Assembly: GCA_965216755.1 (NCBI GenBank)
Contig: CBDCGL010000011.1
Span: forward strand, 704,001-768,000
From: Alphaproteobacteria bacterium
Lineage (GTDB): Bacteria > Pseudomonadota > Alphaproteobacteria > UBA7887
Reading direction: 5' to 3'
Length of the DNA stretch: 64,000 nucleotides
Position numbers and translations under genes: made by a program. Below, in pieces: positions 15,375 to 50,681 of this stretch; position 1 is the first letter of the stretch; every line of letters starts with the position of its first letter. The notes under the pieces were generated by a model, which did no database searches, was not told the origin of the DNA, and was given only the letters and a program-made list of their open reading frames with translations.

Positions 15375-15917
15375 ATGAGTGAAGCGCGGCCGCTTGGACC
15401 CACCGCGCCGCGGAAGAACATCTGCCTCTTTATCGCCGTCAGCGTCGCAATGGCGATCTTGATGTGGCCAGTGGCCGTGCGCGCTGATGACGTGGCGCAT
15501 GAACGCAAACAACGGAAACACAACCCCATAAAAATTGAAGCTATCCGCGGGCTCCATTTTGGCGACATGGTGCCTAGCCAATTTGGCACCGGTACGGTCA
15601 GCATCAATGTGGCCAATGGGCGCAAAACAGTGGGCGGCGGCGTCATCGACCTGGGCGGTCGCCATAGTCGCGCGCAATATCGGATCAAAGGCAAACCAAA
15701 AGCGCGATTTATCATCGAGCCCATGGAGCGGACGACCTTATATATGGCCGGTGCCGAGTTGCCGGTCGTTGACATCGTGACCATTCCGGAGCGTGAGGGC
15801 CGATTCGGACCGGACGGGCGGGCAATTGTTGTGGTCGGCGGAACCTTGCTTGTCGACCCGCGCCAGGACCCCGGCTCCTATCGTGGGCACCTTCTCGTAA
15901 CCGTGGTATATCAATAA
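15375..15917 (+). CDS. DUF4402-like secreted pilin-type subunit 1
   Basis: Signal peptide; LHFGD; C-terminal VGGTLLVDPRQDPGSYRGHLLVTVVYQ. Confidence 0.75.
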   Translation: MSEARPLGPTAPRKNICLFIAVSVAMAILMWPVAVRADDVAHERKQRKHNPIKIEAIRGLHFGDMVPSQFGTGTVSINVANGRKTVGGGVIDLGGRHSRAQYRIKGKPKARFIIEPMERTTLYMAGAELPVVDIVTIPEREGRFGPDGRAIVVVGGTLLVDPRQDPGSYRGHLLVTVVYQ

Positions 15918-15991
15918 GTTACCGGATATTTATCGATCTTTAAAAGATCTCGAGCAGGCTTCCAGCAAGTACGTCAGCCGGGTCGAGATCT

Positions 15992-16435
15992 ATGGCAATT
16001 TCCTGCCGCGTGTGCGCGGCGTTTCTTTTGTCTGTACAGGCACCATTGTCGGCGTGGGCGCAGGCGACGGTCAACACCGACATATCTGCGACAGTCGTAG
16101 CACCAACACCAAGCGTGTTCGCTCTGCGGCCTTTGACCTTTGTTCGTACAGCGCAGGCGCATGGTCACGAAGATCTGGGTGGGGCCCAGAGCATCCCGGC
16201 GATAGTGGTGATTCGCGACACGGCGCAGTTGCAATATCAGATTGAAACGTCCGCTTCGGCAATCGTTGTGGGGGGACACAGGCCGTGTGAATGGGACTTC
16301 GTGACGGCTGCCAGCTTGTCCAATCTCGGTAATCCAGTCGATATTGTGGAATTGAGCGGTCCACTATCCGCGGTTGATTTGGACCGATCTTATATGGAAC
16401 CAGGATTCTTACCGCTAATTCTACACTATGAATAG
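15992..16435 (+). CDS. Divergent DUF4402-like secreted subunit 2
   Basis: Signal peptide ending AWA, N-terminal QATVNTDISATVVAP and LTF like the neighbours, penultimate Tyr (LILHYE); the middle is poorly conserved. Confidence 0.55.
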   Translation: MAISCRVCAAFLLSVQAPLSAWAQATVNTDISATVVAPTPSVFALRPLTFVRTAQAHGHEDLGGAQSIPAIVVIRDTAQLQYQIETSASAIVVGGHRPCEWDFVTAASLSNLGNPVDIVELSGPLSAVDLDRSYMEPGFLPLILHYE

Positions 16436-16680
16436 TTGTGTGACGAGCACACCCAGCACGGTGTTTTTGGCTCACTACGCGCCAATGCGAAGACTCATAT
16501 GGACATATTATCCACTTGCTTCCGCCGCGCGCGTGCGTATGATTTGCCTCACTCGGTTCGGCTTACAAATCGCATTGCCATGGTCTGCTGGACAACGTTT
16601 CCGACGTGCAATGAATGCGTGCGAAATCCCCACGGCGCCATCCGACGATTCTATCGAGCAGAGACGGTAGCCATGACAGG

Positions 16681-17217
16681 ATGCCCTCGGGTACTTCTGT
16701 TCGGCTGATAATTATCGCTGGAGCCGCCTTGGCGTTCACTGTCGCCAACCAAGTCCAAGCCGGCGTGGGTGGCGGCGTCGGCGCGTCGGCAAGTCAAACC
16801 ACGAGCGCAAGTGCCAATGTCGTTTCGCCAATCACGCTGACCAACAACGTTGGTCTGTCCTTCGGCACATTTGCACCGTCGACCAATCCGGGCACGGTTA
16901 CTGTTGACGTTGCGGGCGGAAGATCCGTTGTCAATGTCGGTGCGGCCGGTGGCACGGTGACAGCCGCAATTTTCTCAGTGGGTGGCGAGACAGGCAACAT
17001 CTTCGACATTACTTTGCCATCCAGTACAAGTATCGATCTGGTTTCAGGCGGCGGTGACCCGATGACGGTTGATAGTTTTGTCAGTGTTCCGGCGACGTCC
17101 GGGACTTTGTTCGGCGGCGCGTCGAGTCTATTTGTCGGCGCCACCCTCAATGTCAATGCCAATCAAACGGCCGGTTCCTACGAAGGCAATTTTGATGTCA
17201 CGGTGGCCTATCAATGA
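16681..17217 (+). CDS. DUF4402-like secreted pilin-type subunit 3
   Basis: Signal peptide; TSASANVVSPITL, LSFG, VGATLNVNANQTAGSYEGNFDVTVAYQ. Confidence 0.85.
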   Translation: MPSGTSVRLIIIAGAALAFTVANQVQAGVGGGVGASASQTTSASANVVSPITLTNNVGLSFGTFAPSTNPGTVTVDVAGGRSVVNVGAAGGTVTAAIFSVGGETGNIFDITLPSSTSIDLVSGGGDPMTVDSFVSVPATSGTLFGGASSLFVGATLNVNANQTAGSYEGNFDVTVAYQ

Positions 17218-17353
17218 CGTGCAAATGCGATGAATTGTCATGCAAAGTGCATAATCCCATGATAGCATCGCTAATAATGTCCGCGCTATTAGTGAAAACG
17301 ATGACGGCCGCGCAAGCGATTTATTTTGGGATATTGGGGCCAATTCATCAACG

Positions 17354-17899
17354 ATGACATCGGAGGGAAGAGTGCACACACCGTTGAGATTGATCGCTGC
17401 CGCGACAACACTGTTCATCGCGGGAACCCTGAGCCAGCACGCGTTCGCGCAGGCAAGCGCGACCGAATCGGCCGATGCGACTGCCAACGTCATTGCGCCG
17501 ATCGGTCTATCGCATATTGGCGACTTGGGTTTCGCGGATTTCATAGTTACAGGAGCTGGGACAGTTGTGGTTGACGCCTCGGCGTCGCGGTCGGCCACCG
17601 GATCTGTGACTTTGGCCGGCGGGACACCAACCGTGCCAACTTACACCGTCACCGGTGAAAGCGGTCGAACGTACCAAGTTGATTTGCCGGCAGACAGCGC
17701 CCATTCGGTCACGAACGGCGTCGATACGATCGATCTCATCAGTTTTGTCGACAGTTTCGGTGGTACAGATGCCGCGCCGCTTGGGGGCACGATTGGCACC
17801 TCTGACGTATTCACTGTCGGCGCGACCCTAAACATCCTCGGTGCCGTATCGTCGGGGCCGTATTCGGGATCTTTCGACGTTATCGTCGCATACAACTAG
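17354..17899 (+). CDS. DUF4402-like secreted pilin-type subunit 4
   Basis: Signal peptide (AFA); ADATANVIAPIGL, LGFAD, VGATLNI...GPYSGSFDVIVAYN. Confidence 0.85.
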   Translation: MTSEGRVHTPLRLIAAATTLFIAGTLSQHAFAQASATESADATANVIAPIGLSHIGDLGFADFIVTGAGTVVVDASASRSATGSVTLAGGTPTVPTYTVTGESGRTYQVDLPADSAHSVTNGVDTIDLISFVDSFGGTDAAPLGGTIGTSDVFTVGATLNILGAVSSGPYSGSFDVIVAYN

Positions 17900-17973
17900 T
17901 CGAACGCTAATGCTGTTCGCGGCGGATTATTGCGCGCAGTATCTCACCGCTATTTGCTGAATTCTGGCAACAC

Positions 17974-18825
17974 GTGAATTTTCATCACCTCAGCGGACTT
18001 CGTGTTTGGCTTTGTTTGCTTCACGTCTTTGTGGGCAGCGGAGCGAACCTCGCGTACGCCCAAGGCATCGGCAACGTCAGTGTCAATCCGACGCGGGTCG
18101 TGCTGGAAGGGCGTGCGCGGAGCGGTGAGGCGACTGTATACAATCGCGGTAATGAGCCGGCCACCTATCGGATATTCTTTCGTGAGATGGCCATGACCGC
18201 CGAGGGTGGTTTGCAGACCTTGGAAGAGGTGCCAGCGAATTACCCTTCGGCCTCGTCGATCATTCGCTACTCACCGCGCCAAGTGACACTTGGGCCTGGC
18301 GAAAGCCAAACCATACGATTGCTCGCGCGTAAACCGGCGGATTTGCCGCCCGGCGAGTATCGTTCGCATTTGGTCGTGCAGGCTGTGCCCCCACCCGATG
18401 CAGGGCAAACCATCGAATCGTTGGCGCTGGAGGAAAACCAAATTCAGATCCAACTGATTCCGGTGTTCGGGATCTCGATACCGATCATCGTCCGCCACGG
18501 CGAATTGGCTGCAACCGCTGCCTTGTCCGACCTGGCGATCGAAAACACGGCGAACGGCCCGCAGCTCAACTTGCGCATTCAACGCGACGGCAACAAATCC
18601 CTCTATGGCGATATCGCGGTGACCTACACCAACAGTGGCTCAAGCGAATTTCAGGTCGGTCTGATTCGCGGCGTCGGTGTCTACACGACAACCGACAGCC
18701 GAAACGTTCGTCTATCATTGCAGACGCCGAGCGGTGTATCCCTAGCTGCTGGCGGAAAAATCAGCGTCACGTATCAAACTGACAACGGGCAGCTTCTCGC
18801 TCAGGCGAGTCTTGCTCTGCGCTAA
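17974..18825 (+). CDS. Fimbrial periplasmic chaperone (PapD_N-like)
   Basis: Signal peptide; VSVNPTRVVL, YSPRQVTLGPGESQTIRL, GEYRSHL, GISIPIIVR. Confidence 0.88.
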   Translation: MNFHHLSGLRVWLCLLHVFVGSGANLAYAQGIGNVSVNPTRVVLEGRARSGEATVYNRGNEPATYRIFFREMAMTAEGGLQTLEEVPANYPSASSIIRYSPRQVTLGPGESQTIRLLARKPADLPPGEYRSHLVVQAVPPPDAGQTIESLALEENQIQIQLIPVFGISIPIIVRHGELAATAALSDLAIENTANGPQLNLRIQRDGNKSLYGDIAVTYTNSGSSEFQVGLIRGVGVYTTTDSRNVRLSLQTPSGVSLAAGGKISVTYQTDNGQLLAQASLALR

Positions 18826-18834
18826 GGCGACGAC

Positions 18835-21800
18835 GTGAATCGGCCCGCGCCCTTTTGGCGAGTCGCCAATTGGGCAACGGCGATTCTGATTCTGTTGAAC
18901 GCTCTTCCGCAGTTGGTCATGCCGGCTGACAGCGCTTTGGCGGCGTTGTCACCGCAACGGCCAGACGACGAGAGCTTGCTCATATTTGAGATCCATCTGC
19001 GGCCGTATTTGTTGAGCGACGGCGTGTTCGCCTATCCGGCAGCGGACGACGTCCTGTTGCCACTCGAGACGCTGTCGTTCTTGTTCGAGTTCCCAATTAC
19101 CATCGACCTGGCGAAGGGACGCGCTGAAGGCTGGTTCCTCAGCGAGGATCGAACGTTCTTGCTCGACCTCGTGGCAGAACAGGTGCTGATTGCGGGCGCG
19201 GCGGCCCGCTTCGAGCCTGATCTTGTCGCTTGGTACGACGACGATATCTACGTGGCGGCGCGATTGTTCACCGAGTGGTTTCCGATAGATCTTGTTGTGC
19301 AGGCCGCGCGCCTGGTCATCGACGTGGAACCCAGAACGCCACTTCCGTTGCAGGAACGTATGGGGCGCGAACAGCGCGCCGCACGTTTGGCCTCGGCCTC
19401 CGAAGCGCCAAAACTACCACGCCGCGAAACGCCATACCGCGCCCTCGATTGGCCTTATATCGATGCCTCCTTGCGGACCGGCTACGATACGGTGCGCGCC
19501 GACACGGGCTGGGGCTTCGAAGGCAGTTATGGGTTTCGTTTAGCCGGTGATCTCGCCTACATGACGGCGGACAGTTTCTTTGGCGGCAATCAAGATGATC
19601 GCCTGTCCCAGGCGCGGTTGACCCTGGGGCGCCGTGATCCTGACGCAGATCTTCTTGGTCCTGTCGGCGCAACACAATTCAGTCTCGCCGACGTGTTCAC
19701 GCCCCAGCATCCATTGATCGCGCGTCAAACCGAAGGGCGCGGGGTGAGCGTGTCGAATATGCCGCTGACCCGCGCAAGCGAATTCGACCGCACGACGTTG
19801 CGCGGCCCGCTTTTGCCAGGCTGGGAAGTTGAGCTCTACAGAAATGACGCGTTGATCGCGTTTCAGCGGGCCGGCGACGATGGCCGCTATGAGTTCCAAG
19901 ACGTGCCGCTTATCTTCGGCAACAATCGATTGACTCTCAGATTCTATGGGCCCCAAGGCCAACGCCGCGAAGAAACGGAATCACTGGTTATCGGTGCGGA
20001 CATGGTGCCGCGTGGAGATCACCGTTACGCGGTTGCCGTCAATCAGCAAGACGAAGCCACACTGCCGTTTGGCGATGAACCACGTCGTGCCGGGCAACCA
20101 GACGCGAGCCGAGGTCAGGCGCGCGCGGTCGCCATTTATGAAGCCGGCGTTCACGAGCGCGCGTCCGTCGGCGCCGCAGTGGCGAGTTACGTTCTTGACG
20201 ATGGCCGGCATACCTACCTGACAACAGGTGTTCGCGGGACGGTTTTTGGCAGTTTCGTTCGCGCCGACATTGCGCGAGATTCAAAGGGTGGTACAGCCGC
20301 GCAGCTGGCTATGCAAACGAGAATTGCCAATCAAAGCCTCGCCGCCGAGCATGCCCAGTTCTTCGATTTCATAAGTGAGCGTGAGACGCAAACCGGCGAC
20401 CTCTTGCGCAGTGAAAGTGCCCTGCGCCTGAACGGGACTTTGCCGCGGTTTGGCGGATGGCAAATTCCGTATGCCTTGCGTCTTGGTGTCGAGCGTCGCG
20501 AGTCGGGGCTCACAGAGTTCGACGTGTCAAACCGCCTGTCCGTTCATATCCGCGCGTTGTCGTCGTCAAACCAACTGAATGCCCGCGCCAGGCGCGGTGG
20601 CGGTGTGGCGAGCACCGAAACCCTCGATGGCTCATGGTTAATCAGCTATCGCATGAAAAGTGTATCGATGCGCGGCGAACTCAGTTATCGCGTGCATCCG
20701 TCGCCGGATTTTTTGTCGGTCGCATTGACCGGTGACTATCGGATCGAGCCGGATATCACGGCACGGGCCGGCATCACGCGACAATTGTCGAACGACCGCC
20801 ACACGACTATTACCGCGGGACTGTCTCAGAGATTCGAACATGTGGCGATGGGTCTCGACGGGCGTGTGGCCGACGATGGTGATAAGTTTGTCGGGCTATC
20901 GCTGTCCTTCGCCATGGGGCGCGAACCACGGGGCGGCGGCTTAACCATGCAGCCACGCCATTTCGCCGAGAATGGCGGTGTTTCGGCGCGCGTTTTCCTG
21001 GATCGGGATTTGGATGGGCGTTTCAGCCCTGGCGACGAACCGCTGGAAGGCGTCGCCCTTAAGGGCACCGCAAATGATACGCCGACCACAGACTCCAATG
21101 GCATTCTGATGTTGGTCGGATTGCCAGACGCGCGTCCCACCGATGTGGCCGTCGATATGACCACCTTGGAAGATCCGTATCTGATTCCGCTTGACGACGG
21201 CTGGGAAATCGTGCCGCGCGCGGGCCGCACGGCGGTATTGGATTTCGCCGTCGTCCCAACCGGAGAGATCGACGGTTTTGTCTATTTGCGTTCAAACCAC
21301 AATGCGCAGGTTGCATCGAATGTGAGTTTGGATCTGCTCGACATGAATGGGGCCATCGTCGCCAATACCAGATCTGCTTTCGACGGTTTTTATCTGTTTG
21401 AGTTTGTAAAGCCCGGTTCATATGAAATTCGCGTGGCGCCGGGGCAATTGGATCGCCTCGGTCTGCTTCCGGCACCCGATAAAACCGTCACGATCGGGCC
21501 GGATGGCGATGTAATCAGCGGCGTCGACATATTTCTCGAGCGGGAATTTGAAGACACACGCGAAGCGTCGCTGGCTCCAGCGGGCCAGGCCGCCGATGTC
21601 AAGCCACCATCTACGTCGGAGATCGTCAGTGCTGCGGATCGGGCCGTGCCCGTGGGGACCGACACCTATGTACAATTGGCGGCCTACAGCAATGCACGCG
21701 GCGCCATGGAGGCGTGGCATCGTGTTGTCACTTCGGCTCCCGAGATGTTCAACGGCCTGAGTCCACGCATAGAACCCGCGGAATCGGTAGTTGCAACGGA

Positions 21801-21918
21801 CACACTTTATCGGCTGAGAACCGGTCCTCTGGCTGATCGCGCTGCGGCCGACAATTTCTGCCGGCAATTGCGGATCATCGGTCAGGATTGTTTTCCGGTC
21901 GTTCAGGTCGGCCGCTAA
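18835..21918 (+). CDS. Outer-membrane usher-like protein with C-terminal SPOR domain
   Basis: Directly follows the chaperone. Plug-like GWEVELYRND...YEFQDVPL..GNN....FYGPQG segment, amphipathic beta-strands, VFLDRDLDG and DGFYLFEFVKPGSY Ig-like domains, then YVQLAAY...LYRLRTGPL...FCRQL...DCFPV (SPOR). Confidence 0.8.
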   Translation: MNRPAPFWRVANWATAILILLNALPQLVMPADSALAALSPQRPDDESLLIFEIHLRPYLLSDGVFAYPAADDVLLPLETLSFLFEFPITIDLAKGRAEGWFLSEDRTFLLDLVAEQVLIAGAAARFEPDLVAWYDDDIYVAARLFTEWFPIDLVVQAARLVIDVEPRTPLPLQERMGREQRAARLASASEAPKLPRRETPYRALDWPYIDASLRTGYDTVRADTGWGFEGSYGFRLAGDLAYMTADSFFGGNQDDRLSQARLTLGRRDPDADLLGPVGATQFSLADVFTPQHPLIARQTEGRGVSVSNMPLTRASEFDRTTLRGPLLPGWEVELYRNDALIAFQRAGDDGRYEFQDVPLIFGNNRLTLRFYGPQGQRREETESLVIGADMVPRGDHRYAVAVNQQDEATLPFGDEPRRAGQPDASRGQARAVAIYEAGVHERASVGAAVASYVLDDGRHTYLTTGVRGTVFGSFVRADIARDSKGGTAAQLAMQTRIANQSLAAEHAQFFDFISERETQTGDLLRSESALRLNGTLPRFGGWQIPYALRLGVERRESGLTEFDVSNRLSVHIRALSSSNQLNARARRGGGVASTETLDGSWLISYRMKSVSMRGELSYRVHPSPDFLSVALTGDYRIEPDITARAGITRQLSNDRHTTITAGLSQRFEHVAMGLDGRVADDGDKFVGLSLSFAMGREPRGGGLTMQPRHFAENGGVSARVFLDRDLDGRFSPGDEPLEGVALKGTANDTPTTDSNGILMLVGLPDARPTDVAVDMTTLEDPYLIPLDDGWEIVPRAGRTAVLDFAVVPTGEIDGFVYLRSNHNAQVASNVSLDLLDMNGAIVANTRSAFDGFYLFEFVKPGSYEIRVAPGQLDRLGLLPAPDKTVTIGPDGDVISGVDIFLEREFEDTREASLAPAGQAADVKPPSTSEIVSAADRAVPVGTDTYVQLAAYSNARGAMEAWHRVVTSAPEMFNGLSPRIEPAESVVATDTLYRLRTGPLADRAAADNFCRQLRIIGQDCFPVVQVGR

Positions 21919-21940
21919 TGTGCCCATCTGGGTGCGACTA

Positions 21941-22474
21941 TCATTCGTACCCCACCGTCACCTGAAACGTCCCGGTATAGCTACCCGGCATTTGACCGGC
22001 CGTCGTGTTGATCACCGCACCGACCGTAAACGAATCCGTGCCGCCGGAGATGACGCCAAATGCGCCGCCCTTGCTGTCTTCAAAACCATTAACAATCATT
22101 GTCGCGCTCGCATTGGTCGTGTTCTCGACCGAAGCATTGATCGGAAGTTCTATGGAATAGGAACGATCACCGCCAATCACGACAAATGCAGCCGCGCTGA
22201 CGCTGCCACCAAGATGCTGGACGCCGCCAGACGAGTTCGGCGTCCCCGTCGAAGCCAAGATCTTGACTTGGCCAACGCCTGTGACGAAAAAATCCCCGAA
22301 CTGAAGCGGTCCTGTGTTCTGCAAGGTTATGGGTGCCAATATGGTGGCGGAGACATTCGTGGTTACGTCAGCCGCGTCGGCATGCGCGCCGACTAGGCCA
22401 CCACTCAGGATTGCAACAATGGTAACCTCAGCAACTGTGCGATATTTCATGCAAAACGCCATGTGGCAACGCAT
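21941..22474 (-). CDS. DUF4402-like secreted pilin-type subunit 5 (opposite strand)
   Basis: Signal peptide; TTNVSATILAPITL, LQFGD, VGAVIN...QMPGSYTGTFQVTVGYE. Start may be ATG 22450. Confidence 0.85.
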   Translation of the reverse strand: MRCHMAFCMKYRTVAEVTIVAILSGGLVGAHADAADVTTNVSATILAPITLQNTGPLQFGDFFVTGVGQVKILASTGTPNSSGGVQHLGGSVSAAAFVVIGGDRSYSIELPINASVENTTNASATMIVNGFEDSKGGAFGVISGGTDSFTVGAVINTTAGQMPGSYTGTFQVTVGYE

Positions 22475-22680
22475 ATAGGCCCAGGTTCGTCGAATAGCTG
22501 TTAAGCGAGAAATGGTCTGTTTATGGTCAATTGTTCAGTACCCCTTGGATATCGATAATGGACTGAGACTCGACTTGATAATTACGGTGTTACGGTGACA
22601 GTTTACTGCATACACCACAATTTGCGTGTCTATGTTTTGCGCAACAAAATTTTATATATTTACCAAAATGTCACCGCAAT

Positions 22681-22975
22681 TGGCGAAACGCCGGAGTCAG
22701 GACACGAGCCGAATATTTGGATCTCGTGTGGTTCACGGATCGGACGTTCGCTCTGGTGCTCGATGCAAGATCAAGCGAACGTCCGATCCACCGCACGCGC
22801 GCATCGGGCAAGTCGGCCGACCAATGTGGTCGTCCACATGGATTCCCATTGGGGGACGCCTGCGGGTCGCAAACCCGCAGGGCCGGGCGATTTTGTGACA
22901 ATCGCGACGACGCTGTCCGTAGCCGTATGCCCGATACGGCCTGCGGACATCGACTTGATCTTGTCACAAAGTCGC
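22681..22975 (+). ncRNA. Candidate structured non-coding RNA (family not recognised)
   Basis: At least five consecutive stems including a perfect 16-bp stem (22737-22752/22774-22789) and an 88-nt hairpin (22888-22975); 10-bp pseudoknot pairing; the four non-canonical pairs noted are G-U on the + strand; AT-rich tract just upstream. Confidence 0.45.
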
Positions 22976-23116
22976 TCCGACAGAATGGTTCAATATGGTC
23001 GGAAAGTGCTCTAGATCAACCTGCGATCAAACGGAATCGTTTGATCGAAGATAAGTTGACCGATATCAAATAGATAAAGCCTCACACGTGAACGCATGTG
23101 AGCGTGAAAGGCTTTA
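22976..23116. repeat. Short palindromic intergenic repeat, CIR/RIME/Bru-RS-like architecture
   Basis: CTAG at 23011; hairpin CGATCAAACG-gaat-CGTTTGATCG; A-rich spacer; hairpin bounded by TAAAGCCT...AGGCTTTA that supplies the soxA stop; a further half-unit TCCGAC...GTCGGAAAGTGCTCTAG at 22976-23014. Confidence 0.55.
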
Positions 23117-23911
23117 GCGGCGCACCGCCGGCGCCTCGATCGGTAAGCCCGTTGCACGCCAAGCCAGAAACAGTTCAAGATTGACATAATCCGGCGCGCC
23201 AAAGGGGAGGGGTTCGGCGCGGACCCCAGCGTTGCAGAAGCGTAGCCGGCGATGGAGCGAGCCGACGGTCTGCCATTCCAGGCGATAGGACGGGTAGCCG
23301 TTGCCATGACCTTGGCTCAGTCGATCGCCGCGTAGCATCTTATCCCAGTTGTCGTCGTGACAGTGGCTGCATGCCAAATTCAATTGGCCCCGCCGCTGAT
23401 AAAAATAGGTCCGTCCGGCCTCGAAATAGGGTCGAGCCGCGCCATTCACGCCAACATGTATTGGTATCCCATTTGATAGGTACGCAACAAAAGACGTCAG
23501 TTCGAGAAGGTCTTGGGATTCGTAAGGCAGCAATGTTGCTTGCTGGTAACGCTGACGGCAAAGGTTAATGCGCTGCTCTAAATTAACCAGATGTTGTTCT
23601 TGGTCATCGTAGATCGGGTAACGGGCGGCGACACCAGCCAAATCGTCGCCGCCGGTCCCGTGACAATCAGCGCAGGCGATTGCCGCCGATCCTTCGGCGC
23701 GGCGCCACAGATCTTCACCGGCATCAACCCAAAGGAATCCTGGATTGGCGAACGGGTCGTCCTGGAGCGCGCGCGTGTCTGGAGACTGAAACGCATAGCC
23801 GGATTGGAGCGAACCTGGTGAGAGTGGGCGATCGTCCGAGGCGAGGTCGGAAACGCGGATAAAAAGCATCGCGGCGACAACAACAAACGCTGTTATGCGC
23901 GCGGCACTCAT
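23114..23911 (-). CDS. soxA: SoxA-type diheme cytochrome c
   Basis: LQDDPFANPGFLWV, CADCH, LEQRINLC, RRGQLNLACSHCH, YPSYRLEWQ, RLRFC...VRAEP, LELFLAWR. Confidence 0.92.
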   Translation of the reverse strand: MSAARITAFVVVAAMLFIRVSDLASDDRPLSPGSLQSGYAFQSPDTRALQDDPFANPGFLWVDAGEDLWRRAEGSAAIACADCHGTGGDDLAGVAARYPIYDDQEQHLVNLEQRINLCRQRYQQATLLPYESQDLLELTSFVAYLSNGIPIHVGVNGAARPYFEAGRTYFYQRRGQLNLACSHCHDDNWDKMLRGDRLSQGHGNGYPSYRLEWQTVGSLHRRLRFCNAGVRAEPLPFGAPDYVNLELFLAWRATGLPIEAPAVRR

Positions 23912-48077: not shown

Positions 48078-50681
48078 TTGACCGCGCGCAATCTGCTCAT
48101 TGTGTCTTGGGTCGCGGCACTGACTGTCACGATTTGGTGGGCGGCTCATTCGCCCCACAGCCCACCATCTTGGGATGGCGGTCTGGTCGGTGGCCTGACC
48201 TATGCGCCATATCAACGGCACGACGACCCCGCACGCCGGGACGTGCCTTCGCGAGAGGATGTTTACCGCGACGTCGACCTCATTGCTGGCCGCGCCGGCG
48301 CAATACGGACCTACGCGATGGACGCCGCAGGCGCACGTGCCGTCGCCGCGGCAGCAGCGTACAATTTGCGCATCACTGCCGGGGCATGGCTGCGTGGGGC
48401 CCGTGACGCCGACCGCGCTGAGATCGAGCACTTGATCGCGGTGGCCAATCGTACGTCGGCGATCGAGCGTCTCTTGATCGGCAACGAAACGGTTTTGCAT
48501 GAGCGACTTGCGCCGCGAGAGCTCGCGGCGCTGATCGGCAATGTGCGCCAAACAGCGTCTGTGCCTGTCGGCACGGCGGAGCCATGGCACATATGGCTGG
48601 CCCATCCCGAGCTTGCCGCGGCAAGCGACTTCGTCGGTGTTCACATCCTGCCCTATTGGGAGGGTATTTCACGCACCGCCGCCATCGACTATGTCTTTCG
48701 GCGCCTCGCGGCGCTGCGGACGGCGTTTCCAGGCAAACCGATCGTTTTGGCAGAGGTTGGCTGGCCGAGTGACGGACCAAGAATGGGTGCGGCCGTTCCA
48801 TCGATCGCCAACCAGGCGTGGTTTAGCCGCGCTTTCGCTACCCGCGCGGAAAAGGAAGGTTTCAGCGACTATTTCTTCATCGAGGCATTTGACCAACCTT
48901 GGAAATCGGCGAGCGAGGGACAAGTCGGGCCGTATTGGGGCCTGTGGAACGCCAATCGGCAGCCCAAATTCCCCTGGGTCGGTTCGGTCACGCCGCGTCC
49001 TTCTTGGTGGTTGCCAACGATGGTGGTGGTTTTGGGGCTGCTTATCGTCGCCGGTGTCTATTTACGCGCCAGGCCGCAGATTTCGTCGACGGGCACAGCG
49101 GCAATGTCGTTTTTTGTTGTGGGCAGTTTTTCGCTTTACGCATTGACCGCGTCGGCGCCGCTTGTTCGGTACTACACAGGGGCTGAGATTGCGGTATGGA
49201 GTGTGCTTCTGGCCGCCCAATTGCTATTGATCGCGACGGCACTTGTAGAGGCCATTGAAGCGCTAGACGTAACGTGTACGGGGCCGCGACGACGCATTTT
49301 TGCGGCGAACCCTGGCGTTGTCGCCCGGCACCCAATGGTGTCGATCCATGTCCCATGCTGCGACGAGCCGCCGGACATGGTCGCGCAAACTTTGCGGGCG
49401 CTCGGGCGACTGGACTACCCCGCCTACGAGGTCTTGGTTATCGTCAACAATACGCCGGATCCGGAAAACAGACGGGCAATCTCCGATCTGTGCCGGCGCT
49501 TTGGTCCGAAGTTCCGCTTCATCTGTTTGCCGGATTGTCCTGGCTACAAGGCTGGCGCATTGAACGTCGCCCTGTCACGAAGTCACGCAGCGGCGGAAAT
49601 CGTGGCCGTCGTCGACAGCGACTATACGGTCGACCCGCATTGGCTGAGTGCGGCGGTTCCGCATTTCACCGCGCCCGACGTGGCCATTGTTCAGGCACCG
49701 CAGGACTATAGAGATCGCTTGCGAAGCGTCTTCAAGCGCCTTTGCTTTTGGGAATATGCAGCGTTTTTCAAAATCGGCATGGTGCAACGGAATGAGGCCA
49801 ACGCCATCATTCAACATGGCACAATGACTCTCATTCGGCGGCGGGCGCTGCAGGACGTCGGCGGCTGGAACGGATGGTGCATTACTGAAGATGCGGAACT
49901 GGGGCTGCGTCTTATGGCCGCCGGATGGCGTTCGGCCTTTATCACCCGGTCCCTGGGGCGCGGCCTGACACCCGATCGATTTGAGTCCTACAAGGCCCAG
50001 CGATTTCGCTGGGTCTACGGGGCCATGCAAGTCTTGAAGCATCACGCAGGGGCTCTGTTTCTGGGGCGCGAAACGCAACTTTCGGTCTCGCAGCGCTACC
50101 ATTTTGTCGCCGGTTGGTTGCCTTGGTTGGCCGATGGCTGCGGATTGCTGTTCACGGTTGGCGCCATCGCGTGGTCGGCCGCGCTGGCATTGTGGCCTGA
50201 CGCGATCATGGCGCCAGCCGCTGTGTTTCTGCTGCCCACCGTTGCGGTGTTCTTATTTCGGCAGGCGCGGGTCTTGTGGCTCTATCGCCGCACGATGGGC
50301 TGTCGTTTCGTGCAAGCAGCCGGAGCATCGATTGCCGGCTTGGGCCTGAGCCACACTGTCGGCAAGGGGGTGTTGTGGGGTCTATTCACACGACAGCGGC
50401 CGTTTCTTCGCACCCCCAAATGCGAAGACAGGCCCGGATTGCTCAATTTGGTGGCCGGCGTGGGCGAAGAAGCCGTCATTTTCCTGGCGCTGGCCGGGTC
50501 GATAGCGGCTGTCGCGCTGCAACAGGGATTGGATAACATAGATGTCCGATTGTGGCTGCTGGTACTGACGATACAGACGATTCCCTATGCTGCGGCGATC
50601 GCACTTGCGGTCCTTAGTGGTCGACCTATCCAGGTCGGCCAACAGATGGCTGCGCCTATTGTTGTCGAACCGGCTGAATAA
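48078..50681 (+). CDS. GH17-GT2 fusion, NdvB-like beta-1,3-glucan synthase
   Basis: GH17 motifs IRTY, IGNE, AEVGWPS, EAFDQPWK; TM block; GT2 motifs KAGALN, VDSD, TEDAELG, QRFRW. Confidence 0.9.
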   Translation: MTARNLLIVSWVAALTVTIWWAAHSPHSPPSWDGGLVGGLTYAPYQRHDDPARRDVPSREDVYRDVDLIAGRAGAIRTYAMDAAGARAVAAAAAYNLRITAGAWLRGARDADRAEIEHLIAVANRTSAIERLLIGNETVLHERLAPRELAALIGNVRQTASVPVGTAEPWHIWLAHPELAAASDFVGVHILPYWEGISRTAAIDYVFRRLAALRTAFPGKPIVLAEVGWPSDGPRMGAAVPSIANQAWFSRAFATRAEKEGFSDYFFIEAFDQPWKSASEGQVGPYWGLWNANRQPKFPWVGSVTPRPSWWLPTMVVVLGLLIVAGVYLRARPQISSTGTAAMSFFVVGSFSLYALTASAPLVRYYTGAEIAVWSVLLAAQLLLIATALVEAIEALDVTCTGPRRRIFAANPGVVARHPMVSIHVPCCDEPPDMVAQTLRALGRLDYPAYEVLVIVNNTPDPENRRAISDLCRRFGPKFRFICLPDCPGYKAGALNVALSRSHAAAEIVAVVDSDYTVDPHWLSAAVPHFTAPDVAIVQAPQDYRDRLRSVFKRLCFWEYAAFFKIGMVQRNEANAIIQHGTMTLIRRRALQDVGGWNGWCITEDAELGLRLMAAGWRSAFITRSLGRGLTPDRFESYKAQRFRWVYGAMQVLKHHAGALFLGRETQLSVSQRYHFVAGWLPWLADGCGLLFTVGAIAWSAALALWPDAIMAPAAVFLLPTVAVFLFRQARVLWLYRRTMGCRFVQAAGASIAGLGLSHTVGKGVLWGLFTRQRPFLRTPKCEDRPGLLNLVAGVGEEAVIFLALAGSIAAVALQQGLDNIDVRLWLLVLTIQTIPYAAAIALAVLSGRPIQVGQQMAAPIVVEPAE

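What the first reader, a model, noticed from the sequence alone, without database searches (positions are those of the whole stretch)
22681..22975. Candidate novel ~300-nt structured RNA with pseudoknot and alternative pairings
Seen: stems ACACGAG/CTCGTGT (22702-22729); a perfect 16-bp GGATCGGACGTTCGCT/AGCGAACGTCCGATCC; ATGTGG/CCACAT; a 9-bp CCTGCGGGT/ACCCGCAGG (22859-22881); and an 88-nt hairpin (22888-22975). The loop of the 16-bp stem (TGCTCGATGC, 22757-22766) pairs over 10 bp with GCATCGGGCA (22801-22810), an H-type pseudoknot. The same segment can instead pair with TGCCCGAT (22928-22935), and CAAGATCAAG (22766-22775) is complementary to CTTGATCTTG (22954-22963). The four non-canonical pairs are G-U on the + strand and A-C on the minus strand. 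I did not see RNase P, tmRNA, SRP or common riboswitch signatures. Inference: a + strand ncRNA or switch divergent from the pilin gene, or a non-autonomous mobile RNA element.
Basis: partly seen in the sequence, partly recalled or inferred. Interest (0 to 1): 0.75.

Follow-up and report, generated by a model that had tools for sequence, protein, structure and literature searches.

The report
Truncated IS630-type miniature transposon copy
The proposed 300-base structured RNA is a left-truncated copy of a hairpin-rich, gene-less miniature transposon present at about 65 places in this genome, so it is ordinary selfish DNA and not a locus-specific RNA gene.

Summary
The cause is repetition. Window 22696-23014 is the right-hand 319 nt of a ~462-nt MITE with ~34-nt terminal inverted repeats and TA flanks. 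The genome holds 65 loci of this family: 10 full copies plus many deletion forms. The window copy lacks its left end, so it cannot move.

It lies between two other small repeat families (22593-22676 and 23012-23116).

The MITE termini match both ends of ~1051-bp IS630-family insertion sequences of other Alphaproteobacteria at 19-24 of 32 positions, always flanked by YTA. The host genome keeps only two tiny IS630 relics.

The pseudoknot and alternative pairings are at chance level and show no compensatory change. The perfect 9-bp stem is private to this copy. Only the 88-nt hairpin covaries, within this genome and in related MITEs of other genomes, with no strand preference, which points to a DNA-level constraint.

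There was no Rfam match and no RNA data. The scan has met structured MITEs read as RNA before (e1-2134647), but not this sequence.

The parts
22696..23011 (+). Left-truncated copy of the ~462-nt MITE (family model positions 145-460). It lacks the left 144 positions, including the left terminal inverted repeat.
   Evidence: blastn and nhmmer against the own genome. Alignment with 10 full copies shows homology starting at 22696. It is 98.4% identical to the copy at C11:437804-438265. Contigs of 4 runs cross the 22696 junction with 0 differences.
22696..22709 (+). Remnant right arm of hairpin module P1 (model 145-158).
Evidence: Consensus fold of the full element pairs model 84-107 with 130-156.
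22723..22799 (.). P1 and P2 together are absent from the 273/299-nt short forms.
   Evidence: In the 16-bp stem, 13 of 16 pairs never vary, 3 vary only by breaking, and none is compensated.
22825..22851 (.). 27-nt indel module carrying the ATGTGG/CCACAT mini-hairpin.
   Evidence: Absent from the copy at C11:3747441-3747878 and from the 273-nt short forms.
22885..22977 (.). It is the only part with compensatory changes.
   Evidence: 5 of 15 basal pairs changed on both sides among 11 copies. 6 of 26 pairs did so among 27 own-genome copies. 25 of 26 pairs did so among 83 distinct matches in other genomes, on a model-fitted alignment. There is no strand preference among the non-Watson-Crick cells.
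22978..23011 (+). Right terminal inverted repeat of the MITE, ending ...GGAAAGTGCTC.
   Evidence: The left and right ends of the consensus align over 34 nt, z 16.5 against shuffles. They share 19-24 of 32 positions with the ends of ~1051-bp IS630-family elements.
23012..23013 (.). TA flank, the presumed target duplication, within CTAG. It is shared with the next repeat.
   Evidence: TA lies on both sides in 15 of 16 two-ended copies examined, 10 full and 6 short; one has AA on the left. The outer bases are mostly C...G.
23014..23114 (.). Copy of a second, ~100-nt repeat family (repeat B), inserted at the same TA. Its far TA (23115-23116) lies in the soxA stop codon.
   Evidence: 33 blast hits, 28 of them near-full copies, most flanked by CTAG. 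The soxA ORF ends at 23114.
22593..22676 (.). Copy of a third small repeat family (repeat C), with inverted ends GGTGACAGTTTACT.../...GTCACC, 19 nt left of the truncated MITE.
   Evidence: Dozens of matches across the chromosome; alignment with 3 other copies.
21941..22474 (-). Flanking gene: DUF4402 fimbria-like protein. Its start codon is 222 nt from the MITE.
   Evidence: Pfam PF14352, E 9.6e-21.
23114..23911 (-). Flanking gene: soxA, last gene of soxXYZA on the minus strand.
   Evidence: Pfam PF21342, E 4.5e-35; SoxZ, SoxY and a cytochrome c lie upstream of it.

Best explanation
Window 22696-23014 is a dead, left-truncated copy of a non-autonomous DNA transposon (MITE) of about 462 bp. Intact copies have ~34-bp terminal inverted repeats beginning GAGCGCTTTCCGACCATATTGAATC and sit between TA dinucleotides, usually inside CTAG. 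They carry no gene. They are built from nested palindromic modules: P1, P2, a 27-nt mini-hairpin and P3.

Inferred mechanism: an IS630-family (Tc1/mariner-type DDE) transposase supplied in trans binds both inverted repeats, cuts the element out and pastes it into a TA, which is duplicated. The family grew by adding hairpin modules (273 nt, then 299 nt, then 462 nt) and decays by internal deletion.

The window copy has only one end, so it can no longer be mobilised. The pseudoknot and alternative pairings are incidental short matches between modules.

Shown: repetition, inverted repeats, TA flanks, modular variants, similarity of the ends to IS630 ends, and absence of an intact IS630 transposase gene in this genome.

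Inferred: TA duplication (no empty site was found), mobilisation in trans, and the order in which modules were added.
For: - **Copies.** 69 matches in the own genome, 9 of them covering query 16-283/295 at 88-99% identity. Homology runs to 23014 in 10 other copies. nhmmer hits collapse into 65 loci: 10 are full length and 22 keep both termini.
- **Ends.** Alignment of 10 full copies shows the inverted repeats and TA on both sides; the window copy diverges left of 22696. The left and right ends align over 34 nt.
- **Variants.** Six short forms (273-299 nt) lack P1 and P2.
- **IS630 link.** ~1051-bp elements encoding DDE_3 transposases have ends cTA|GAGCGnnTTCCGAyCnGATTGAATCG. All 23 ends inspected in 12 loci are preceded by TA, and they share 19-24 of 32 positions with the MITE end, against about 8 expected at random.
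- **Placement.** 54 of 65 loci lie between my crude gene calls. 25 of 65 are in convergent gaps, against 721 of 4091 gaps genome-wide. In tandem gaps the orientation is 17 the same as the genes and 14 opposite.
- **Neutral decay.** At consensus Watson-Crick pairs the derived changes are 81 G-T, 74 A-C and 124 mismatch events, against 23 compensated.
- **Read depth.** Contig depth in 4 runs rises from about 5 in the flanks to about 200 inside the repeat.
- **No RNA family or protein.** No Rfam family at gathering score in 64 kb. No Pfam family for the internal ORFs.
Against: - No empty site was found: there was no paralogous one and no same-genus genome is held. TA could therefore formally be the element's own terminal dinucleotide and not a duplication.
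- No intact IS630 transposase is in this genome. PF13358 gave 0 matches, and there are only two relics of 26-33 aa. No IS-length pair of these exact ends was found in 94 loci of other genomes. The cognate partner is therefore unidentified.
- The MITE interior has no homology to IS630 DNA.
- The P3 hairpin is kept by compensatory changes, and the ancestral consensus folds better on the + strand (-281.5 vs -260.4 kcal/mol; 13 of 15 copies). Some structural constraint therefore exists that pure junk would not predict.
Confidence: 0.93

Rival explanations
1. A locus-specific + strand non-coding RNA or riboswitch-like switch, divergent from the DUF4402 fimbrial gene, with an H-type pseudoknot and alternative pairings.
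For: The fold z-score is -7.25. The window row has four G-U pairs on the + strand. The + strand is more stable than the minus strand by 11 kcal/mol in this copy.
Against: The same sequence occurs at 65 loci in both orientations. The minus strand folds as well, z -7.40. The pseudoknot helix has an uncompensated A>C in 5 of 11 copies and no double change. The long-range pairings are at chance level. The 9-bp stem is private to this copy. There were 0 promoter-like sites in 22300-23300. No Rfam family matched, apart from sub-threshold miRNA-hairpin matches at 20-25 bits against cut-offs of 90-268. Both flanking genes are transcribed on the minus strand.
Confidence: 0.03
2. The element is a MITE, but its hairpins have been taken over for a host function at the RNA level when co-transcribed, for example terminator, RNase III site, mRNA stabiliser or sRNA source, as reported for Correia, ERIC and Coxiella QMITE elements.
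For: The family is enriched in convergent gaps, 25 of 65. The P3 hairpin is kept by compensatory changes. The ancestral consensus has 11 G-T against 3 A-C pairs and folds 21 kcal/mol better on the + strand. A review reports such roles for other MITEs (PMC10969869, passages read).
Against: There is no orientation bias relative to genes, 17:14. Derived changes are strand-symmetric, 81 G-T against 74 A-C events. In other genomes the non-Watson-Crick cells of P3 are 91 G-T against 67 A-C, and 27 against 67 once the two fixed G-T pairs are left out. That means no single functional strand. Enrichment in convergent gaps is also what tolerance of harmless insertions predicts.
Confidence: 0.12
3. A MITE derived from an IS5-family (IS427/IS1031 group) or IS1380-family element that duplicates 3-4 bp (CTAG/YTAR), not from IS630.
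For: The flanks read CTAG...CTAG in 9 of 16 two-ended copies. An active 841-bp IS5/IS427-like element with CTAG flanks is in the genome in 8 copies and often abuts MITE ends. Eleven IS1380-type (PF13701) fragments are present. IS5-derived MITEPsy1 duplicates CTAG/YTAA (PMC3189936, passages read). Earlier notes of this scan re-assigned similar cases to IS5 or IS1380.
Against: The four-base flanks differ in 7 of 16 copies; in 6 of these the difference lies only at the outer bases, and one has AA for TA on the left. TA is kept in 15 of 16. The ends of the IS427-like element (GGGCTTGTTGAGA...) do not resemble the MITE ends. No match to the MITE ends beyond noise was found in the IS1380 relic regions. 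The MITE ends do match IS630 ends.
Confidence: 0.04

Closest known systems
IS630-family insertion sequences of Alphaproteobacteria (~1051 bp, DDE_3 transposase), for example loci L215, L227 (Bradyrhizobium MAG), L229 (Afipia MAG) and L197/L198/L203 (Acidocella)
   Same: The terminal sequence is TA|GAGCGnnTTCCGAyCnnATTGAATC, with 19-24 of 32 positions identical. TA flanks are preceded by C or T. IS630 is reported to use TA in 5'-CTAG-3': these are titles of Tenzen & Ohtsubo 1990/1991 seen in the reference list of PMC2170065, whose text states TA duplication for the family.
   Different: The MITE has no transposase gene, is 462 bp instead of ~1051 bp, and its interior is unrelated to IS630 DNA. 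No IS with exactly these ends was found.
Nezha (cyanobacterial MITE)
   Same: It is a MITE whose inverted repeats match an IS that is absent from the host genome and found only in another species, with a very stable predicted fold (PMC3184786, passages read).
   Different: Nezha is 130-170 bp and had empty and filled sites documented. Here the element is 462 bp and modular, and no empty site is available.
Correia elements (CREE/NEMIS) of Neisseria, and ERIC
   Same: These are dispersed intergenic inverted-repeat elements that fold into long hairpins when transcribed. Correia transcripts are cut by RNase III at the inverted repeats (PMC10969869, passages read). TA duplication by Correia is recalled, not seen in a call.
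   Different: The sequences are unrelated, and those elements are much shorter (about 100-200 bp). A regulatory role is shown for them and untested here.
Clusters of BOX, RUP and SPRITE repeats in Streptococcus pneumoniae
   Same: Different small repeat families lie bunched together and insert into one another (PMC10969869, passage read), like the C-MITE-B nest at 22593-23116.
   Different: The families and the host phylum are different.
Structured MITE of Verrucomicrobiota noted earlier by this scan (e1-2134647)
   Same: A multi-helix element first read as an RNA gene turned out to be a MITE whose arms carry a conserved, covarying hairpin (an AI note that I did not check).
   Different: That one was assigned to the PIF/Harbinger-IS5 superfamily. 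No sequence look-alike of the present element is in the scan's index.

Membership tests
Bacterial MITE | Terminal inverted repeats | tested here: met
   The consensus left and right ends align over 34 nt, z 16.5, and the repeats are visible in 10 full copies. The window copy keeps only the right one.
Bacterial MITE | Small size and no transposase gene | tested here: met
   The element is 462 nt. ORFs across it have no Pfam family at E <= 0.1.
Bacterial MITE | Many dispersed copies with deletion variants | tested here: met
   There are 65 loci on the chromosome: 10 full copies, 6 short forms of 273-299 nt, and many one-ended fragments.
Bacterial MITE | Target-site duplication shown by filled versus empty sites | tested here: inconclusive
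   TA lies on both sides in 15 of 16 two-ended copies. No paralogous empty site was found, and no same-genus genome is held.
IS630/Tc1-mariner-derived MITE | Insertion at TA (IS630: TA within CTAG) with TA duplication | tested here: met
   For the 10 full copies the flanks are C 7/10, T 2/10 or A 1/10, then TA ... TA, then G 9/10 or A 1/10. The short forms give C-TA ... TA-G/A. That TA is a duplication is inferred.
IS630/Tc1-mariner-derived MITE | Ends similar to those of an autonomous IS630-family element | tested here: met
   19-24 of 32 positions are identical to 23 ends of 12 IS630 loci, each preceded by TA. 19 of 80 IS630 loci have 5 or fewer mismatches to the 19-nt core. DDE_3 was confirmed for L227 and L174.
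IS630/Tc1-mariner-derived MITE | Cognate transposase present in the same genome | tested here: not met
   PF13358 gave 0 matches in G000. tblastn finds only relics at C11:1688965-1689066 and C11:4397305-4397393. Among 8 other MITE-bearing MAGs tested, 3 have DDE_3 genes, and none of those carries exactly these ends. This feature is not required for membership; Nezha also lacks a resident partner.
Known structured RNA family (Rfam) | Match at the family's gathering score | tested here: not met
   There were 0 matches in the 64-kb window. At E <= 1 the only matches were miRNA-precursor-like hairpins and RT-15, at 16-25 bits against cut-offs of 82-268.
Structured ncRNA in general | Covariation supporting the proposed helices, on one strand | tested here: not met
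   Helices 1-5, including the pseudoknot, have 0-1 pairs with double changes among 11 copies; only the P3 base has 5 of 15. P3 covariation across genomes shows no strand preference.
IS5 (IS427/IS1031) or IS1380-derived MITE | 3-4-bp duplication and ends matching such an IS | tested here: not met
   The four-base flanks are identical in only 9 of 16 copies. There is no similarity to the resident IS427-like ends, to a G041 IS427-like end, or within the IS1380 relic regions.
REP/REPIN (RAYT-mobilised palindromes) | 20-40-bp palindromes with GTAG/CGTC heads and an associated RAYT gene | not tested
   This was not pursued. The long inverted repeats, TA flanks and IS630-type ends already explain the element.

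The most novel reading that the evidence does not exclude
The ~90-nt hairpin next to the terminal repeat (P3, window 22885-22977) may be a selected cis-acting structural module of an alphaproteobacterial IS630-type MITE superfamily. It is kept by compensatory changes in several genomes and on both strands. This suggests a DNA-level signal, such as cruciform or hairpin extrusion or a symmetric protein site, that helps transposase recruitment or end pairing. I know of no such requirement described for IS630/Tc1-mariner elements (recalled, not searched).
Probability: 0.2. Interest if true: 0.5.

Novelty: new member of a known kind. Interest (0 to 1): 0.2.

Why it matters
The main value is as a correction. 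A very stable multi-hairpin fold in an intergenic region looked like a new RNA gene but is one copy of selfish DNA, and such elements will keep producing false 'structured RNA' candidates unless copy number is checked first.

Beyond that, the work defines an undescribed MITE family that is unusually large (462 bp) and modular. It ties the family by its ends to a widespread clade of ~1051-bp alphaproteobacterial IS630 elements. It also shows that related MITEs with the same ends and the same subterminal hairpin occur in several uncultured Alphaproteobacteria.

The hairpin's strand-neutral covariation gives a small, testable question about what IS630-type MITEs need in cis.

Tried and rejected
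- **RNA evidence.** No RNA holder is listed for 21941-23911. The four DNA runs (two samples, one study) are contigs and show only repeat-type depth and contig breaks. One X3 contig joint, 22639>23013 (depth 4.4, side 46), is unexplained and may come from another locus where repeats adjoin.
- **Partner transposase.**
  - An exact scan for the ends in genome contigs found nothing with a strict 34-nt pattern.
  - A 20-nt pattern gave 20 stretches, and a relaxed pattern gave 113 or more.
  - Pairs of ends were 200-520 nt apart, with one 1723-nt pair that encloses ordinary genes.
  - Contig-end copies in G041 were MITEs as well.
  - In the class-wide pattern search, only a few of 401 genomes (G000 28 matches, G266 43, G200 3, G124 3) hold more than two matches; single hits are at the level of the reversed-pattern control.
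  - The plasmid collection gave no match.
- **Other IS families.** The ends of the resident IS481-, IS3-, IS21- and IS5-type elements do not match. The IS427-like element and the IS1380 relics were rejected as partners.
- **Relatives.** A DNA search of 40 relatives gave only short matches at E about 1e-4 in 3 genomes.
- **Paralogous empty sites.** None was found. The single spanning hit is an artefact of an adjacent IS copy.
- **Common origin of P1, P2 and P3.** No similarity was found among the modules.
- **An apparent solo P1-P2 unit** at C11:4360462-4360635 runs on into the following MITE segment, so it is a fragment and not an independent element.
- **Coding potential of the internal ORFs.** None.
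- **Literature.** A search for the end motifs gave no relevant paper. A search for IS630-derived MITEs of Alphaproteobacteria returned only eukaryotic or unrelated work. Supplementary files of papers were not consulted.

Full report
**Observation.** As RNA, the 295-nt stretch folds to -148.9 kcal/mol, z -7.25, and none of 200 dinucleotide shuffles does as well. The reverse complement does the same: -146.8 kcal/mol, z -7.40. The signal is therefore palindromic DNA, not a strand-specific fold. The pseudoknot and the two alternative pairings together make 6 ten-mer windows, against 2.5 +/- 2.6 in shuffles, so they carry no weight.

**It is a repeat.** A search of the window's own genome (5.0 Mb, 11 contigs, 99.8% complete) with the 295 nt gave 69 matches. 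Nine cover query positions 16-283/295 at 88-99% identity. With wider flanks, the shared segment is window 22696-23014. Aligning ten other copies with their flanks shows the whole element:
- It is about 462 nt long and begins TA|GAGCGCTTTCCGACCATATTGAATCAATTCTG.
- It ends with the reverse complement of that sequence followed by TA.
- The window copy loses homology left of 22696, so it lacks 144 positions, including the left inverted repeat.

Contigs from four public runs (two samples, one study, possibly the source of the assembly) cross that junction without a difference. Their summed depth rises from about 5 in the flanks to about 200 inside the repeat.

**Census and anatomy.** A profile built from the ten full copies finds 133 hits that collapse into 65 loci on the chromosome. 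Ten loci are full length and 22 keep both termini. The recurrent breakpoints define these modules:
- left end: model positions 1-84
- hairpin P1: 82-158
- a middle part with a 27-nt mini-hairpin
- right repeat: 427-462

Window position equals model position plus 22551. Six short forms of 273-299 nt lack P1 and P2, which sit in the loop of a central hairpin. The 273-nt forms also lack the 27-nt module. The consensus folds as one giant foldback in which the two ends pair and the modules branch off. P1, P2 and P3 are not similar to each other.

**The neighbourhood is a nest of repeats.**
- Window 23012-23116 is a copy of a second family of about 100 nt. It has 28 near-full copies, mostly CTAG-flanked, and was inserted at the same TA.
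- Window 22593-22676 is a copy of a third family with its own inverted ends and dozens of copies.

The whole gap between soxA (23114-23911, minus strand) and the DUF4402 fimbria-like gene (21941-22474, minus strand) is thus mostly mobile debris.

**Which transposon family.** TA lies on both sides in 15 of 16 two-ended copies examined. For the ten full copies the outer bases are C (7 of 10) on the left and G (9 of 10) on the right. The four-base flanks are identical in only 9 of 16, and nearly all the differences lie at the outer bases. This fits a TA duplication at a CTAG-like target, as stated for IS630 elements. PMC2170065 gives TA duplication in passages I read, and the CTAG preference appears in titles in its reference list.

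The genome has no PF13358 (DDE_3) gene. Neither do the three MITE-bearing MAGs I tested first. Following notes from earlier findings of this scan, I tested IS5/IS427 and IS1380 as alternatives:
- The resident 841-bp IS427-like element (8 copies at 99.6-100% identity, also CTAG-flanked) has unrelated ends.
- The 11 IS1380-type fragments show nothing like the MITE ends.

Five further MITE-bearing MAGs settled the question, because three of them hold DDE_3 genes whose elements end in CTA|GAGCG.TTT. Using one of these transposases as a query returned 80 loci. In 12 loci inspected, ~1051-bp elements have both ends of the form cTA|GAGCGnnTTCCGAyCnGATTGAATCG. All 23 ends are preceded by TA, and they match the MITE end at 19-24 of 32 positions, against about 8 expected at random. 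Pfam confirms DDE_3 for two of them.

The MITE is therefore an IS630-type derivative. Its interior is unrelated to IS630 DNA, and the host retains only two relics of 26-33 residues. It is an orphan, as described for Nezha (PMC3184786, passages read). The best pair of full copies is 97.4% identical, and the window copy is 98.4% identical to its nearest relative.

Their variation is only disruptive: the pseudoknot has an uncompensated A>C in 5 of 11 copies, and the perfect 9-bp stem exists in 1 of 29 copies.

Across the whole element, derived changes at consensus Watson-Crick pairs are 81 G-T, 74 A-C and 124 mismatch events against 23 compensated. This is neutral, strand-symmetric decay.

Copies sit mostly between genes: 54 of 65 lie outside my crude gene calls. 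They are over-represented in convergent gaps, 25 of 65 against 721 of 4091. In tandem gaps, 17 point with the genes and 14 against. No sigma-70-like site was found in 22300-23300, and there was no Rfam match.

Two observations point the other way:
- The ancestral consensus has 11 G-T against 3 A-C pairs and folds 21 kcal/mol better on the + strand, as do 13 of 15 copies.
- The base of P3 shows compensatory changes: 5 of 15 pairs among 11 copies, and 6 of 26 pairs among 27 copies.

**The P3 hairpin beyond this genome.** A covariance model of P3 plus the right repeat finds 87 matches in 81 loci from other genomes. Most of these loci come from alphaproteobacterial MAGs that were picked up by the end motif. 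Many matches are full length at 90-105 bits, often with one at each end of a ~270-nt MITE.

On that alignment, which is model-fitted and therefore biased towards pairing:
- 85.9% of cells pair, against 56.7% in shuffles and 26-50% when partners are slid.
- 25 of 26 pairs show changes on both sides.

The non-Watson-Crick cells show no strand preference. They are 91 G-T against 67 A-C, and 27 against 67 once two fixed G-T pairs are left out. The palindrome itself is therefore kept, on both strands. That fits a DNA-level constraint, or a templated repair mechanism, better than an RNA gene. This is the one part of the finding with some residual interest.

**Verdict.** The feature is a new family within a known kind: a large, modular, orphan IS630-type MITE. 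The window copy is a truncated relic of it.

Noticed in passing
window 23012-23116: Repeat B is a ~100-nt family with 28 near-full copies, mostly flanked by CTAG. One end (GAGCATTTCAC...) resembles IS630-type ends. In the window its far TA lies within the soxA stop codon (TAA, 23114-23116 on the minus strand). It also carries a terminator-like hairpin on the minus strand at 23102-23081.
   Followed up: partly
window 22593-22676: Repeat C is a ~84-100-nt family with inverted ends GGTGACAGTTTACTAAATA.../...TATTTAGTAAACTGTCACC. It has dozens of copies in the genome, and the three copies whose context I checked lie between convergent genes.
   Followed up: partly
G000:C11:172029-172869 and 7 other copies: An 841-bp IS5/IS427-like insertion sequence (two frames, DUF4096-type N-terminus by eye) is present in 8 copies at 99.6-100% identity, flanked by CTAG. 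Three copies abut an intact MITE terminus exactly at its TA, and two more abut remnants that look like the MITE end. MITE ends therefore seem to be preferred targets.
   Followed up: partly
G000:C11:1688965-1689066 and C11:4397305-4397393: These are the only traces of IS630-type transposase in the genome: 26-33 residues at 55-71% identity, the second with 52 nt that is 90% identical to the right end of the L206 element.
   Followed up: partly
G000:C11:4801978-4812457, 200735-201692, 49226-49573, 441970-442824: Eleven fragmentary matches to the IS1380-type transposase domain PF13701, with stops and frame breaks. They are decayed copies.
   Followed up: no
G000:C11:288417-289935: A 1519-bp IS with a 457-aa IS5-type ORF is inserted inside the left inverted repeat of a MITE copy.
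   Followed up: no
window 15483-22474: A fimbria-like cluster: three further DUF4402 paralogs (window about 15483-15914, 16798-17214 and 17369-17896), a PapD-type chaperone (17974-18825), a 1027-aa protein with a C-terminal SPOR domain and no usher family hit (18835-21918), and the convergent DUF4402 gene next to the MITE.
   Followed up: partly
window 22639/23013: One contig of run X3 joins 22639 to 23013, skipping 373 nt (depth 4.4, 46 nt on the shorter side). This is not explained; it could be another locus where repeat C-like and repeat B-like copies adjoin.
   Followed up: no
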